A DNA stretch of 64,000 bases from contig CAYLWL010000001.1 in assembly GCA_964387675.1 (NCBI GenBank), forward strand, positions 144,874 to 208,873, given 5' to 3'. Shown here piece by piece: positions 51,001 to 60,000 of the stretch. Position numbers: made by a program. The stretch comes from an uncultured Candidatus Saccharibacteria bacterium. GTDB taxonomy: Bacteria > Patescibacteriota > Minisyncoccia > UBA6257 > 2-01-FULL-56-20. Numbering within the stretch: position 1 is the first letter of the stretch; the number at the start of each line of letters is the position of its first letter.

Positions 51001-54000
51001 GTGAAGTTGATGGTGAACGGCACACAGATCGGTAAGACCTTGGATTCCGTTGGCGCGAACGGCGAAGCATTCTTCGACGCTTCGGACAAGCCGGGCGTTT
51101 TGAACACCGGTTCAAACAACGTCCAGGTGTACGCCGACATCATGGGTTCACCGTCTTACACGTTCCAGTTTGAGATATTGAACTCATACGACGTCTTCGC
51201 GCTCGACAGCCAGTACAATATACCGGTTCTCGGGGCATCGAACGTCGGTACGCAGGTAACGATTAAGTCCGGAACGATCACCATGTCTCAAGCCACGAAT
51301 ACCCCGACCGGCAACATTGCCGCTGGCCAGTCCAGCGTCACGATTGCCAAATTCACCGTCTACGCCGGTGGCGAAGCCGTGAAAATCAAATGGTTGGGCG
51401 TCGGCTTGAACTTGGTCAGTTCTTCCGGAACCATCGACAGGTTGTTCAAGAACTTGGCTTTGGTTGACGACGCAGGCGGCCAGGTTGGCACCACGATCAA
51501 CACGCTTTCAACGAGCGTGACGTGTACCGACACCGATTTCCAAAACTCAACCACGAGTTACCGGAACTGTTTTGGAAACAGCTCCTCGCCGATCAACTAC
51601 ACGATTCCGGCGAACACTACCAGAGTGCTCTCGCTCGTCGTCGACGTCCAGTCAACCGCGAGCTTTACGACGGTTACCGGTATCACGGTTGCCAACACGA
51701 ACAACTTGCAGGGCTTGACTTCCAGCGCGACGGCATCGAGCGCCGCGGTAAATGGCAGCGCCTTGACGCTTTCTACCTCCAACCTCACGGTTGCGGCAAA
51801 CAGCGCCTTGGGTACGCAGAATATCACGGCTAACTCCTCGAATAAGAGGATCAGTTCGTACGCCTTTACGGCTTCGTCCGCCGAAGGTGTCACCGTGAAC
51901 AACGTGAGCGTTACGGCTCGCGGCAACATGTGGACAAACCTGAAAGTGATGGTCGGCAACACCCAGTTCGGTACCACGCAAGGCACCGTTTCCTCGGGCA
52001 CGGTCTACTCATTCTCGGGTAATTCCTTCACGGTTCCGGCCGGTCTTACGACGTATGTTGACGTCTACGCCGACGCCATTTCTTCCGCATCGGGTACGGT
52101 TGCTCCGGCTTCCGTCTTGAGCGGTTGTTCGGCAAGCGGCGCGTCGTCTTTGACCGCCATCAGCTGCGGTTCGACGAACGGTCAGAACATCACGTTCGCC
52201 GGCCAGTCGACGGTTACGGTTTCTATTGACTCCGCAACGCCGGCTTCTCAACAGCTCGTCATGGGCGGCAGCGGACAGTCGTTGGCAATCTTCAGGTTTA
52301 CCGAAACCTCGAACGTCGAAGACATCAAGATTACCGATTTGAGCATCTTCGACCAGGTAACGGTGAACTTGGACCTGAACTCCAGTACGGCTTCGCACGT
52401 GAAGTCCGGGTTCGGCAACTTGTCGCTCTATAACGGTACGGCTCTGCTCGGAAGCGCCGGTTCCGCCAACACTTCCGTTGCGACCGCGACAGCGAACTCG
52501 ACGTCCGGTCCCGGTTACTACTACACGTTCCACTTTGCGACGCCCGTAGTGGTTCCGCAGGCGAACTCGGTGGCCTTGACTTTGAAGGGTGACGTTGCAT
52601 CCTACGCATCATCCGGCGCGACGGACAACACGACCCACACCTTCAAGATCAGCGTTTCTACCGACTCGGCGATTGACACAAATCAAGAAGTGATCGTTGC
52701 CCTTGGCAACACTTCGAACGCCACATCGGCCATATCGCTCGCATCATCGTCCGTTGCCGGCAACGTTATGACCTTGCTTCGCAGCAAGATGACGGTTGGC
52801 GCGACGATGCTGGGGCTTTCCTCCGGTCGCGCGAAAGCGAACGTGGATGACCTTGCGACCTTGAACTTCTCGGCGAACTCCGCCGGAGGCGTTCAGATCG
52901 GCTCGGTTACCATGTTCTTCACCGGTACGGGTCCGTCGGGCACGTCTGGCGGCACCGGCGGCGGTGGTTTGTCGAGCACGTTCTGGAACACGGGTAACAC
53001 CGCTACGACCTGTGCGGCCGCGAACTGTACGGTGCAACTGTACGATTCGGCCAACGGTACGACGTACTTCGCCGTTGCTTCGTCTACCACGAGCGGCAAC
53101 AACTTGACCTTCGACCTCAAGAACTACCAGTTGTCCGCAGGTACCACGAAGAGCTTCAGCGTTCGACTCAACTCGAACAACGCCAACTCTTTCGTGGCCG
53201 CGGCATCCGGAATCGCTCCGACGCTCGGTGTAACGATCAACGCGATCGGCAACGTTACCTGGAAAGATGCGCTTGACACCAACGCTGCTTCGGCTCTTAA
53301 CCTTGAGGGTTATGTGATCCCGGTCAACGTTGCGTCCGTCTCGTACTCGACAGGTTCCTAACGCCTATACATCTGGTAGCTTGAGAATATCGGTTGTATA
53401 AAACCAAGCCCCCCTCCGACCGAAGTCGGAGGGGGGCTTTGGGTTTCTGCCCTTATCCACAATCACCGCTTGTCTCCCAAATACAGAAAGATTACAATTC
53501 TACACATATGAAGAAACTCGCCTCATTCCTCTCGTTGATCGTCCTCTTCCCGTTCCTCGCCTCCGCCCAAAGCGCGGGTCAAGGCAATTCGCAAAATGCC
53601 GCACCGAGCGCGATCCAAAGCCAGAGTTCCGGCACGGCACAGAACGTCTCTATCGCCGACCTGCAGAAAATAATCCAGGACCTCGTGAAGCAGGTCCAGT
53701 CGTTGCAGCAGCAGATATCAGCGCTTCAAGGAGGACTAGGCAAACAACAGGAGGTGCCGGCATCCACATCCACCACAACCGCAGAAACGTCGGCAGTAAC
53801 TTCAACTCCGGCATTTTCTCCCACTCCCGAAACTTTTTCCGAGGAAGAAGTTCTTCCTCTTAAACTCAAGCGGCCGCTCTTCCGAGGTTCTTCCGGAGAC
53901 GATGTCCGCAAACTCCAAGAACTCTTATCCAAAGACAAGGAGATTTACCCCGAAGGTTTGGTTACCGGCTACTTTGGCTTTCGCACGGAGATTGCGGTGA

Positions 54001-57000: not shown

Positions 57001-60000
57001 CAACAGGAGGTGCCGGCATCCACATCCACCACAACCGCAGAAACGTCGGCAGTAACTTCAACTCCGGCATTTTCTCCCACTCCCGAAACTTTTTCCGAGG
57101 AAGAAGTTCTTCCTCTTAAACTCAAGCGGCCGCTCTTCCGAGGTTCTTCCGGAGACGATGTCCGCAAACTCCAAGAACTCTTATCCAAAGACAAGGAGAT
57201 TTACCCCGAAGGTTTGGTTACCGGCTACTTTGGCTTTCGCACGGAGATTGCGGTGAAGAAGTGGCAAGAAAAACACGGAATTGAATCAGTAGGTGTTGTC
57301 GGCCCCAAGACCATCGCCAAATTCCAGGAACTGGGGAGAGGCGTGATTCAGGGACTCATCCAACAGGGAGCCGGCCTCTCCGGCGTTGTTCCTCCCGGAC
57401 TTCTCACCGCTCCCGGAATTCAAGGCAAACTGGGCATCGCCGCAACCACCACAATAATCCAAACTACGACGACCACCTCCCAGGCAACCACTACTCCTTC
57501 GGGGACGACGCCGGCAATCCCCGCTATTCCGGCCCAACCCTCCCAGGGCACAGGCGGCTTCACCATTCCCGCAGAACCGGCAATCCCAGCGGTTCCAGCG
57601 GCTACGTCTACAACCGCGACCTCCACAGACACCGTGGCTCCATCTGCGCCGACCAATCTTACTGCCACGGCCGTTTCATCTATTCAGGTCAATCTCTTCT
57701 GGACTGGTTCTACCGATAATGTCGGGATTGCCGGATACAAGATTTATCGCAACGGGAGTTTGATCTCTTCAATTGCCACGACGACCGTTGCCGCCCCGAG
57801 TGGCGGACAAACAGTGAATTACTCCGTTACCAATCTCTCTCCGAGCACCGCCTACTCTTTCACCGTTGCCGCGTATGATGCCGCCGGGAATACTTCTGCC
57901 CAGTCCGTTTCGGCTTCGGCGACAACCCAGGCCGCATTGAGCCACAGTTGCGGAACGCCGGTTAACGTGCCGCAAGACGCGCCGTCAATCCAAGCCGGAC
58001 TCAATGCCGCGTGCTCCGGCGACACGGTTTATGTTTCTGCCGGAACGTATAGAGAAAACATTACCGTCCCGCGTTCGCAATTAACCCTCAAAGGCGCGTC
58101 CGGTACCACGCCAGAACAAGTTATCATTGACGGCGGAGGCATCGCGGACGTTGTTTACGCAAAAGCGGTATCGGATTTTGTTATAGACGGATTTACCTTG
58201 CAGAATGCTTCTCAAGGCGGTTCTATGCCTGGCGGCGGCGGACTTTTCATTAATGGGAACGTTTGTTGCAGTTTTAATGCCGGCAACACGATTGCGCGGA
58301 ATCTTATCGTAAAAAGTAACTCTCACGGCGTTGTCGTGTGGAACGTGCATGCCGGCTCCATTTCTCTTGAGCGCAATCTTATTGTTGGCAACCTCTACTC
58401 GGGAATAGATGCTTCTTCTCCGATTTCATCCGGACAGATGATTATAACGAACAATACGATCGCGAAGAATAGCAGAGATGGTTACTACGACTGGGCTGGC
58501 GGCGGATCGCGGACCTTCCGCAACAACATCATTGTGAGCAACGGAAGATACGGCGTCTACTCGAATCAATATACAACGAAGTATGCTTCCTACGACGACG
58601 TCTGGGGCAATACACAGCGAGATTACTGCAACGCCGAGCCCTATGGAAGCTGTATTACCAGCTACACGCCGTCGCCGGGGACGGGCGAGCTGTCGGCGGA
58701 TCCAAAGTTCGTCAGTTCTTCGGATTACCACTTGCAAAGCACTTCCCCGGCGATCAACGCCGGCGATCCCGGTTCGCAGTACAACGATCCCAATGGCACA
58801 AGAAACGATATGGGCGCGTATCCATTCGTCGGATCAACGGCAACGACGACCGCGGCAGACACCGCAGCCCCTTCGGCGCCCAACGTTAGTTACATAATCC
58901 ATTCTACGCAAGTCGATCTTTCTTGGGCTCCCTCCACGGACAATGTCGGCGTCGCGGGATACAGGATTAACCGTGGCGGAAGTTTGCTCGTGACTCTTGC
59001 CACAACTACAACCGGCGCCACGATCTCCTACTACGACGCCGGCCTTTCGCCGAGCACAACCTATTCTTACGTCGTTACCGCCTATGACGCCGCCGGCAAC
59101 GTTTCTCTTCCAAATTCGGCAAACATCACAACGCTTGGCGGCACAACGGCCGATACGACTCCGCCCAGTGTGCCGACCAATCTATTGGCGGTAGCCAGCT
59201 CCTCTTCGCAAATCAACCTCTCTTGGACGGCATCAACGGATAACGTCGGCGTTGCCGGGTACAAAATATACCGAGGCAGTCTGCTTCTTGCTTCGTGGAG
59301 CGGCACTTCTTATTCCGACGTAGGCACCTTCCCCTCTCTTTCTCCTTCTACGAGTTACACCTATACGGTTGCCGCCTACGACGCCGCGGGCAATGTTTCT
59401 TCGCAAAGCAGTCCGGCGAGCGCGACGACCCCAGCCGCGTTGCTTGCTCCGACTGCCGTGAGCAGCGAGTTCGGCTCTGGCTGGCCCGGGCGATATGAAC
59501 AATCTATCAGGTTCGGCTATCCATCAAGCGGCATATCCCAGGTTAGTTCATTCAGATTTTACGAAAAAAAACCAAATGACGCCGCGTTCAATCTGGTGGA
59601 AACATTTGCCAATGTTGCGCCGCTCGTGACAAATTGCAGTGGCCCGATTTATGGCAACGCTTGGAATCTTTCCTACGCGTGTAGCGCAGGGTTTTGGGAC
59701 GCTCATTCCAAAAGCACGCACACCTCGTCATTTTTTCAGGTTGGCGAGTATGATTACTATGTAACGGCGGTTGACAGTTCGGACGCCGAGAGCGCCCCCT
59801 CGCCGACGCTCAAAGAATACATTCTGCAGCCGGTAGAGATTACCAGCCCCACTTCGGCCCAGTCGCCGACGGCTCCCACGCCGACCATCAGGTGGAACGC
59901 GGTAAGCGGCTGGCCGTCCAGTTTTACGCCCCCGTATTATATTCAGGTTTCCGAGGAAGGAGCGTTAACAAGCTACATGAGCCCGGTGTATACCGCGAGC

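What the first reader, a model, noticed from the sequence alone, without database searches (positions are those of the whole stretch)
53559..58050. 1,236-bp perfectly identical 5' module shared by two adjacent giant surface-protein genes (gene conversion / cassette exchange)
Segments 53559-54794 and 56815-58050 are identical at every position examined, and identical reverse-frame ORFs appear in both copies. The identity begins inside the signal peptide coding region and ends abruptly inside the first beta-helix coil, after which the genes are homologous but clearly diverged. Such a sharp identity boundary implies recent gene conversion or a modular recombination system that swaps N-terminal anchor modules onto variable beta-helix payloads. 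This is a hallmark of antigenic or adhesin variation. It is also a likely assembly hazard.
Basis: seen in the sequence. Interest (0 to 1): 0.6.

Follow-up and report, generated by a model that had tools for sequence, protein, structure and literature searches.

The report
Identical anchor module in two tandem genes
Two neighbouring genes for secreted, cell-wall-anchored proteins in an uncultured groundwater bacterium share a 1,236-base stretch that is identical to the letter, most likely because one gene recently copied that part onto the other; this is a well-known process and it also breaks public assemblies at exactly this spot.

Summary
Segments 53559-54794 and 56815-58050 match at 1236 of 1236 bases, and this is the only long repeat in the window. 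The repeat (R) starts at codon 18 of g2 (53508-56669), which is the Ala-Ser-Ala signal-peptidase motif. It ends in the conserved N-terminal cap of a right-handed beta-helix. It encodes a coiled coil, PG_binding_1, a Thr/Pro-rich linker and fn3. On both sides synonymous sites are saturated (pS 0.88 and 0.81). The payloads of g2 and g3 (56761-60264) are about 50% identical in the beta-helix and 25-30% in the C-terminus.

Independent short-read assemblies of the same population (two Candidatus Liptonbacteria MAGs and Logan contigs from several runs) stop exactly k or k-1 bases inside the repeat edges. A 2,080-bp contig links the end of R to the start of R. The tandem order A-R-B-R-C is therefore required by the assembly graph.

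The window holds no recombinase, reverse transcriptase or silent cassette, and no ortholog of R was found elsewhere.

Verdict: these are real tandem paralogs whose anchor module was recently homogenised by gene conversion. No dedicated cassette-exchange or antigenic-variation system is supported. It is an ordinary case of a known kind and a proven assembly hazard.

The parts
49885..53361 (+). g1: 1158-aa secreted protein with a related but diverged N-terminal anchor (coiled coil + PG_binding_1). It is the first of three consecutive surface-protein genes.
   Evidence: Pfam PG_binding_1 E=1.9e-11. tblastn of g2/g3 residues 48-184 gives 34% identity at 49984-50280. An identical protein is on record in two NCBI MAGs and six Logan runs.
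53406..53439 (.). 15-bp GC-rich hairpin between g1 and g2, a likely transcription terminator of g1. The scan called it on the minus strand; the stem is palindromic and is followed by CTTTGGGTTT on the plus strand.
53470..53498 (+). Promoter-like site (TTGTCT-17-TACAAT) 10 nt upstream of the g2 start codon. This is a consensus match only.
   Evidence: Seven such sites were found in the region against 8.1 expected, so it is weak evidence on its own.
53508..56669 (+). g2: 1053-aa protein. Order of parts: signal peptide, coiled coil, PG_binding_1, T/P-rich linker, fn3, right-handed beta-helix, fn3-like domain, beta-sandwich domains, C-terminal helix.
   Evidence: The beta-helix model has pLDDT around 90 over residues 10-240 of the modelled piece, and its fold matches pectin-lyase-fold enzymes only weakly.
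53559..54794 (+). R copy 1: the 1236-bp identical module (g2 codons 18-429). It holds the A-S-A cleavage motif, coiled coil (~53643-53747), PG_binding_1 (53892-54065), T/P-rich linker, fn3 (54387-54650) and the conserved beta-helix N-cap with two Cys (~54681-54794).
54795..56814 (+). B: the 2020-bp unique segment between the copies. It holds the g2 payload, the g2 stop, a 91-nt intergenic spacer with no terminator-like site, and the first 18 codons (signal peptide) of g3.
   Evidence: Logan contig L016 equals window 54765-56844 with 0 mismatches and carries 30 nt of R at each end; the same contig occurs in 5 samples. No terminator or promoter hit lies in 56670-56760.
56761..60264 (+). g3: 1167-aa paralog with the same architecture, but two fn3 domains after the beta-helix and a different C-terminal region. 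The start at 56761 (MKKLL...) was chosen by homology with g2; in-frame ATGs also exist at 56719 and 56740.
   Evidence: The model has a beta-helix followed by a chain of fn3/Ig-like domains and a terminal helix.
56815..58050 (+). R copy 2: identical to copy 1 (g3 codons 19-430).
   Evidence: NCBI contig JACQKV010000004.1 starts at 57910 (141 nt before the end of R). Logan contigs start at 58021 (30 nt before it).
60301..62640 (+). g4: membrane protein with a Wzy_C (O-antigen ligase-like) domain and C-terminal TPR repeats, directly downstream. It is context rather than part of the repeat.
   Evidence: Pfam Wzy_C E=9e-16 plus TPR families.

Best explanation
g2 and g3 are anciently diverged tandem paralogs in a Candidatus Liptonbacteria (Candidate Phyla Radiation) genome. 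They encode secreted proteins that are probably held on the cell wall by a PG_binding_1 domain and display a pectin-lyase-fold beta-helix plus fn3/Ig-like domains. The whole anchor-and-stalk module, from the signal-peptidase site to the conserved cap of the beta-helix, was overwritten in one gene by the copy from the other. The mechanism is non-reciprocal homologous recombination (intrachromosomal gene conversion), and it happened so recently that no substitution has accumulated since. Because the flanks are saturated on both sides, the module has most likely been homogenised repeatedly (concerted evolution) while the payloads diverged freely. The 3' edge sits in the stretch most conserved across the family, and the 5' edge sits 51 nt from the start codon, where homology ends.

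Shown: the identity, the step-like divergence profile, the domain content and the tandem order. Inferred: the recombination mechanism, its repetition over time, the direction (weakly g2 to g3) and the biological role. One side effect is that the 1.2-kb direct repeats could allow RecA-mediated deletion or amplification of the R+B unit.
For: There are 0/1236 differences, and dS = 0 over 412 codons. By contrast, pS is 0.88 in the 17 upstream signal-peptide codons and 0.81 over the 590 aligned downstream codons. The payloads are about 50% (beta-helix) and 25-30% (C-terminus) identical in protein. Each beta-helix is closer to proteins of other organisms than to its neighbour: g2-P0032 67%, g3-P0043 62%, g2-g3 50%. 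So the duplication is old and only R is young.

The last ~37 residues of R are 76-89% identical in distant homologs, which makes that stretch a natural place for a recombination tract to end.

The tandem order is independently required. Left contigs end 30, 99 or 141 nt into R, right contigs start 30 or 141 nt before its end, and the middle contig L016 carries R sequence at both ends in 5 samples.

No mobile-element or recombinase gene lies in the 64 kb. Comparable partly homogenised tandem paralogs appear in unrelated loci fetched here: L025 has 1134 bp at 95.8%, and L103 about 1.1 kb at 92-94%.
Against: No ortholog of the pair was found, so within-genome clustering of the modules, the classical signature of concerted evolution, could not be tested. 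The best R relative is 65% identical in protein, and related loci reach at most 57% over long stretches or 68% over a short one. Flanks this diverged offer RecA no homology, so a single conversion between already diverged modules would be difficult. This forces either the repeated-conversion assumption or an illegitimate event. No reads were available, so perfect identity inside R could be partly a consensus effect. No R-encoded protein or full-length g2/g3 is on record in the protein collection. recA was not looked for, because only this window was available.
Confidence: 0.78

Rival explanations
1. A single illegitimate (homology-independent) event produced the identity, with no history of concerted evolution. 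For example, a segmental copy of the g2 anchor module was pasted in frame over the unrelated or highly diverged N-terminus of g3, or a chimeric gene formed during duplication.
For: Synonymous sites are saturated immediately on both sides of R, so nothing shows that the two modules were similar before the event. Across homologs, the similarity of the anchor and of the beta-helix is incongruent, and the same anchor type sits on PQQ-like, NHL, LamG, PEGA and other payloads. Domain shuffling therefore does occur in this family.
Against: Both junctions are exactly in frame and lie at homologous positions of the two genes: the A-S-A motif and the conserved beta-helix cap. Homologous recombination predicts this; random breakage does not. 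No microhomology or shared motif links the start and end of R.
Confidence: 0.12
2. The finding is an assembly artefact. There is only one copy of R and the contig is a mis-join, or two slightly different copies were replaced by one consensus so that the perfect identity is overstated, or B-R exists as a separate circle or as a strain variant.
For: Every public short-read assembly of this population breaks at the repeat edges. No full-length g2 or g3 is on record under any of four start choices, and no R-encoded protein is in the protein collection. The origin of the contiguous window is unknown, and typical read pairs cannot span a 1.2-kb repeat.
Against: The graph leaves no simpler linear solution. 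Contig B (L016, 5 samples) enters from the end of R and exits into the start of R. A enters the start of R, and C leaves the end of R. All overlapping public contigs match the window with 0 mismatches apart from two indels in one MAG, away from the repeat. A mis-join cannot create B's two junctions.
Confidence: 0.08
3. It is a programmed variation system. R serves as the conserved recombination handle of an expression locus, payloads are exchanged from silent cassettes, or high-frequency deletion and re-duplication between the R copies switches which payload is made (antigenic or adhesin phase variation).
For: The products are surface-exposed proteins of a probably host-attached bacterium. 1.2-kb perfect direct repeats are good RecA substrates. 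g3 has no recognisable promoter of its own and no terminator separates it from g2, so deleting R+B would place the g3 payload directly behind the g2 promoter and signal peptide.
Against: Both genes are complete. The 64 kb holds no truncated or promoterless cassettes and no further copies of R or of either payload. It holds no recombinase, invertase or reverse transcriptase. Only one side of each payload is conserved, so there is no second handle for cassette replacement. The same A, B and C contigs occur unchanged in 4-5 samples. The homologs P0032 and P0014 are single genes.
Confidence: 0.03

Closest known systems
Helicobacter pylori babA/babB/babC adhesin paralogs (gene conversion producing chimeric genes)
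   Same: These are paralogous surface-protein genes with homogenised terminal regions and diverged ligand-facing regions. Intragenomic homologous recombination creates chimeras whose 5' part comes from another paralog (PMC4552749, read).
   Different: The bab loci are dispersed, not tandem. Their conversion is documented across many isolates and is coupled to CT-repeat phase variation. The bab proteins are outer-membrane beta-barrel adhesins. Here there is a single snapshot, no simple-sequence repeat, a PG_binding_1 anchor, and only the 5' side is homogenised.
Concerted evolution of duplicated bacterial genes by RecA-dependent gene conversion (e.g. tufA/tufB in Salmonella; own knowledge, not checked here)
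   Same: Paralogs within one genome are kept identical or nearly identical, and a recent conversion erases all synonymous differences.
   Different: In tuf the whole gene is homogenised. Here only a 1.2-kb module is, with step-like edges inside the coding sequence, and the rest diverges to saturation.
Cassette-based antigenic variation (Neisseria pilE/pilS, Borrelia vlsE, Anaplasma msp2; own knowledge)
   Same: Gene conversion acts on surface proteins, with conserved segments adjoining variable ones.
   Different: Those systems have one expression site plus many silent partial cassettes, and the variable part is what gets copied. Here the conserved part is what was copied, both genes are intact, and no cassettes were found.
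Patescibacteria/CPR secreted proteins with an N-terminal signal peptide, coiled coil and PG_binding_1 anchor on varied payloads (database homologs P0014, P0020, P0035, P0081, P0106, P0121, P0166, P0194 and others)
   Same: They share the anchor architecture, at 40-65% identity to R. Many also carry fn3 and the same beta-helix.
   Different: None is closer than 65% to R. Those whose context was inspected are single genes. None shows an identical module shared between neighbours.

Membership tests
Gene conversion / concerted evolution between paralogs | A tract of (near) identity bounded by much more diverged homologous sequence | tested here: met
   0/1236 differences inside R, against pS 0.88 upstream and 0.81 downstream.
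Gene conversion / concerted evolution between paralogs | The paralogs are older than the tract, so the duplication is not recent | tested here: met
   Each beta-helix is closer to proteins of other organisms (67% and 62%) than to its neighbour (50%).
Gene conversion / concerted evolution between paralogs | In a phylogeny with orthologs, the converted segment groups by genome while the rest groups by gene | not testable with these tools
   No orthologous pair was found in GTDB genomes, JGI metagenomes or the protein collection.
Gene conversion / concerted evolution between paralogs | Homologous-recombination machinery (RecA) is present in the genome | not tested
   Only the 64-kb window and flanking public contigs were available. 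None of the annotated genes is recA.
Cassette-type antigenic variation locus | One expression site plus silent, partial, promoterless donor cassettes | tested here: not met
   Both genes are complete ORFs with signal peptides. tblastn and repeat searches find no further copies in the window. The rest of the genome was not seen.
Cassette-type antigenic variation locus | Sequence variants of the variable region within or between populations | tested here: not met
   The contigs for A, B and C are identical in 4-5 sequencing runs and two MAGs. Read-level minor variants could not be examined.
Site-specific inversion/shufflon or diversity-generating retroelement | Inverted repeats plus a recombinase, or a reverse transcriptase plus template/variable repeats with adenine-specific mismatches | tested here: not met
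   The repeats are direct and perfect. No recombinase or RVT family appears in any ORF of the window. A DGR was seen only in an unrelated locus, L017.
Assembly duplication artefact | The second copy lacks independent junction support | tested here: not met
   All four junctions (A-R, R-B, B-R, R-C) are present in independent Logan and NCBI contigs with 0 mismatches.
Assembly duplication artefact | Read coverage over R equals the single-copy level, or copy-specific variants are hidden in a consensus | not testable with these tools
   There was no access to reads or to contig coverage.
PG_binding_1 (PF01471) cell-wall-binding proteins | Match to the Pfam model above the gathering score | tested here: met
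   39.2 bits against a cut-off of 23 in g2 and g3, and 44.4 bits in g1. Binding to peptidoglycan itself is not tested.
Pectin-lyase-fold carbohydrate-active enzymes (pectate lyase, pectin methylesterase, PL6, tailspike depolymerases) | Right-handed parallel beta-helix fold | tested here: met
   Pfam Beta_helix gives 29.6 bits against a cut-off of 25.9 in g3. The AlphaFold model has pLDDT around 90 over ~230 residues. Foldseek hits to such enzymes have probability ~1.0 but TM only 0.36-0.46.
Pectin-lyase-fold carbohydrate-active enzymes (pectate lyase, pectin methylesterase, PL6, tailspike depolymerases) | Membership of a specific enzyme family with its catalytic residues | tested here: inconclusive
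   There is no PDB sequence match to the helix. Identity is 9-19% in the listed fold hits, spread over several unrelated enzyme families. Catalytic residues were not assessed.

The most novel reading that the evidence does not exclude
The identical 1.2-kb module is maintained by selection, not merely left by a recent accident. The anchor/stalk (coiled coil, PG_binding_1, Thr/Pro-rich linker) would have to stay identical in all co-expressed surface proteins because it is recognised by shared machinery, for example the adjacent Wzy_C/TPR protein and the ~45-kb glycan island acting as a protein O-glycosylation system. The direct repeats would also allow reversible deletion and amplification of the R+B unit, tuning which beta-helix payload this symbiotic bacterium displays. 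That would be a recombination-based surface-variation mechanism in the Candidate Phyla Radiation.
Probability: 0.08. Interest if true: 0.5.

Novelty: new member of a known kind. Interest (0 to 1): 0.25.

Why it matters
There are three modest points. First, it is a clean example of partial gene conversion with codon-sharp edges in a Candidate Phyla Radiation bacterium. Little is known about recombination and surface-protein evolution in that group, and its surface proteins are candidates for host attachment. Second, it explains concretely why the two public Liptonbacteria MAGs and all Logan assemblies break here and lack the full-length genes. Surveys of such surface proteins in short-read MAGs will systematically miss or truncate them. 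Third, the locus places three S/T/P-rich, PG-anchored proteins next to a Wzy_C/TPR protein and a large sugar-modification island, which is a testable hint of protein glycosylation. None of this would surprise a specialist in bacterial genome evolution.

Tried and rejected
- **Exact-sequence look-ups of full-length g2 and g3.** I tried g2 from 53508 and g3 from 56761, 56719 and 56740. None is on record.
- **Search for orthologs of R to test concerted evolution.** GTDB genomes gave 41 loci, best 53% over most of R and 68% over a short stretch. JGI metagenomes gave 80 loci, best 57% over a long stretch. The protein collection gave a best hit of 65%, P0121, whose contig could not be retrieved. No ortholog was found, so the test was impossible.
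- **Context of the closest payload homologs.** P0032 and P0014 are single genes with no tandem partner.
- **Motifs at the repeat edges.** I looked for a shared motif, microhomology or inverted repeat. Only 5-7-nt chance matches turned up. There are no tandem repeats in 49-61 kb.
- **Extra cassettes in the window.** None were found.
- **Recombinase or reverse transcriptase in the window.** None were found.
- **Composition.** GC and GC3 of R (0.57 / 0.58) are not distinct from the neighbouring genes, so there is no sign of foreign origin.
- **PDB sequence search of the payloads.** Only fn3 matches came back.
- **Fold search of the whole g3 payload.** It was swamped by fn3 chains.
- **Fold search of the beta-helix alone.** It gave generic pectin-lyase-fold hits that do not assign an enzyme family.
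- **Literature search for CPR, gene conversion and surface proteins.** No papers were found.
- **Direction of conversion.** Proteins with the most R-like anchors (P0035, P0020) have g2-like helices, which weakly suggests g2 to g3. P0032 contradicts this, so I do not rely on it.

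
Full report
**Observation**

Comparing the window with itself at an offset of 3256 gives 1236 matches out of 1236 between 53559-54794 and 56815-58050. The run cannot be extended by a single base on either side. A repeat search over all 64 kb finds no other repeat of this kind, and there is no tandem repeat in 49-61 kb. With 0/1236 differences, the 95% upper bound on divergence is about 0.24%.

**Genes**

Three consecutive plus-strand genes encode large secreted proteins:
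- g1 at 49885-53361 (1158 aa)
- g2 at 53508-56669 (1053 aa, counted from the ATG that follows a strong hairpin at 53406-53439 and a promoter-like site at 53470-53498)
- g3 at 56761-60264 (1167 aa)

They are followed by g4 (60301-62640), a Wzy_C plus TPR membrane protein.

Pfam gives g2 and g3 the same order of parts: signal peptide, a short coiled coil, PG_binding_1, a Thr/Pro-rich linker, fn3, a right-handed beta-helix, further fn3 or Ig-like domains, and a C-terminal helix (models). g1 has a related but diverged anchor, 34% identical.

R starts at codon 18 of g2 (codon 19 of g3). This is the Ala-Ser-Ala motif before the predicted signal-peptidase cut, which I read from the sequence using general knowledge of Sec signal peptides. 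R ends after 'DTVYVSAGTY', inside a ~37-residue segment that is 76-89% identical even in distant homologs and forms the N-terminal cap of the beta-helix. The two mature proteins therefore share an identical first 409 residues, which comprise the whole anchor and stalk.

**Divergence profile**

A codon alignment gives dS = 0 over the 412 codons of R. The proportion of synonymous differences is 0.88 in the 17 signal-peptide codons upstream and 0.81 over the 590 aligned codons downstream, which is saturated in both cases. Protein identity is about 50% in the beta-helix and 25-30% in the C-terminal part, and the domain count differs: one fn3-like domain in g2 and two fn3 in g3.

Each beta-helix is more similar to a protein from another organism than to its neighbour. 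g2 is 67% identical to P0032 and g3 is 62% identical to P0043, against 50% between g2 and g3. The two genes are therefore old paralogs, and only R is young.

**Is the tandem arrangement real?**

The source of the window is not on record. Full-length g2 and g3 are absent from the gene index under four start choices, and no R-encoded protein is in the protein collection. The neighbours g1 and g4, however, are present and identical in two NCBI MAGs and in Logan assemblies of several runs (SRR121134xx). The MAGs are GCA_016204365.1 and GCA_016181795.1. P0001 from the former is named Candidatus Liptonbacteria.

Placing those contigs on the window gives these end points:
- JACQKV010000006.1 ends at 53699, 141 nt into copy 1.
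- JACOYP010000002.1 ends at 53657, 99 nt into copy 1.
- Five Logan contigs end at 53588, 30 nt into copy 1.
- JACQKV010000004.1 starts at 57910, 141 nt before the end of copy 2.
- Four Logan contigs start at 58021, 30 nt before the end of copy 2.

These are the k or k-1 overhangs expected where a de Bruijn graph branches.

A 2080-bp Logan contig (L016), found as the same contig in 5 samples, equals window 54765-56844. It is the unique segment B with 30 nt of the end of R on its left and 30 nt of the start of R on its right. With A entering R, R leading to B, B leading back into R, and R leading to C, the simplest linear path is A-R-B-R-C, which is what the window shows.

Three things remain untested without reads: whether the interior of R is identical in both copies, whether the copy number is exactly two, and whether a deletion form (A-R-C) co-exists.

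**Mechanism**

A step from zero to saturated divergence at in-frame, homologous positions of two old paralogs is the signature of non-reciprocal homologous recombination (gene conversion). The flanks now offer no homology. The most coherent picture is therefore repeated homogenisation of the anchor module since the duplication, with the last event very recent. The 5' limit would be set by the end of homology 51 nt from the start codon, and the 3' limit by the conserved beta-helix cap.

A single illegitimate module replacement is the main alternative. It is disfavoured because both junctions fall at homologous, in-frame positions, and because no microhomology or shared motif links the edges.

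The classical phylogenetic test needs orthologous pairs, and none exist in the collections searched. The best relative of R is 65% identical in protein. Related loci reach at most 57% over long stretches, or 68% over a short one. The closest payload homologs whose context I inspected are single genes.

The direction of copying is weakly suggested as g2 to g3. The proteins with the most R-like anchors, P0035 and P0020, have g2-like helices, but P0032 contradicts this.

**Is it a variation system?**

I found nothing that defines one.
- Annotation of the whole window shows a ~45-kb sugar-nucleotide, glycosyltransferase and methyltransferase island. It is followed by HtrA, ClpB and regulators, then g1-g4, then HU, an ECF sigma factor, primase and RpoD.
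- There is no recombinase, transposase, integrase or reverse transcriptase.
- No further copy of R or of either payload, whole or partial, exists in the window.
- The repeats are direct, so recombination between them deletes or amplifies R+B rather than swapping modules.
- The same contigs recur unchanged in 4-5 samples.

This type of anchor is a promiscuous module in Patescibacteria. Homologs 40-65% identical to R carry beta-helix, PQQ-like propeller, NHL, LamG, PEGA or plain fn3 payloads. Anchor similarity and helix similarity are also incongruent.

**What the proteins may do**

The modelled beta-helix is confident, with pLDDT around 90 over ~230 residues. It matches pectin methylesterases, pectate and alginate lyases, and phage tailspikes only at the level of the fold (TM 0.36-0.46, 9-19% identity). 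The rest of the g3 payload is a chain of fn3/Ig-like domains. PDB sequence searches match only the fn3 domains.

The reasonable inference is that these are peptidoglycan-tethered surface proteins that bind or process a polysaccharide. Whether they are enzymes or adhesins is open.

**Comparison and verdict**

The closest documented analogue is the babA/babB/babC family of Helicobacter pylori, where intragenomic recombination makes chimeric adhesin genes with exchanged 5' parts (PMC4552749). Whole-gene concerted evolution (tufA/tufB) and cassette systems (pilE/pilS, vlsE, msp2) are more distant comparisons, and I cite those from my own knowledge.

Partly homogenised tandem paralogs also turned up by chance in unrelated loci fetched here: L025 with 1134 bp at 95.8%, and L103. 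This underlines that the phenomenon is common.

I rate this a real feature and a new member of a known kind. It has low-to-moderate interest (0.25) and practical relevance for the assembly and annotation of CPR surface proteins.

Noticed in passing
window 41756-41822 and 41963-42029 (inside ORF 41224-42525): A 67-nt direct repeat (94% identical) lies in frame inside an Aminotran_5 (cysteine-desulfurase-like) gene. It encodes two ~22-residue insertions, 'EKLE.RNEKLG.GSSSSLISH.S', 207 nt apart. Their origin is unknown; they could be a small in-frame insertion element or a lineage-specific insert.
   Followed up: partly
window 13170-13209 and 16353-16392: A 40-nt inverted repeat (90% complementary) brackets a 3.1-kb block of three sugar-modification genes: a GT1 glycosyltransferase, a C-methyltransferase and a dTDP-sugar 3,5-epimerase. 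It could mark an invertible or mobile cassette, or be paired terminators.
   Followed up: no
window 1-41200 and 60301-62640: About 45 kb of the window is a glycan biosynthesis and modification island. It includes a sulfatase, a GT10 fucosyltransferase, several GTs, FkbM and C-methyltransferases, a DegT aminotransferase, GDP-mannose dehydratase, a carbamoyltransferase, a B12/radical-SAM enzyme and a GT9. A Wzy_C+TPR protein (g4) sits directly after three surface proteins with Ser/Thr/Pro-rich linkers. Together these hint at protein O-glycosylation.
   Followed up: partly
window 49514-49580 (intergenic, upstream of g1): The second public MAG (GCA_016181795.1, locus L009) is identical to the window except for a 67-bp deletion here and a 1-bp indel elsewhere in 39811-49513. 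This is a small structural polymorphism in the putative g1 promoter or leader region.
   Followed up: partly
L017 17298-18733 and L018 17298-18732: The groundwater contigs that carry the g2-like homolog P0032 have a bAvd + RVT_1 pair (a diversity-generating retroelement) about 5 kb downstream. It is not present in the window.
   Followed up: no
L025 5093-6225 / 9155-10287; L103 2844-3965 / 5736-6814: Two other fetched loci, a Nitrospira MAG (L025) and a metagenome contig (L103), hold 1.1-kb direct repeats of 92-96% identity spaced 3-4 kb apart. These look like analogous, slightly older homogenised segments.
   Followed up: no
window 53406-53439: A very strong 15-bp hairpin with 11 G-C pairs lies between g1 and g2. 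It is probably a bidirectional intrinsic terminator.
   Followed up: no
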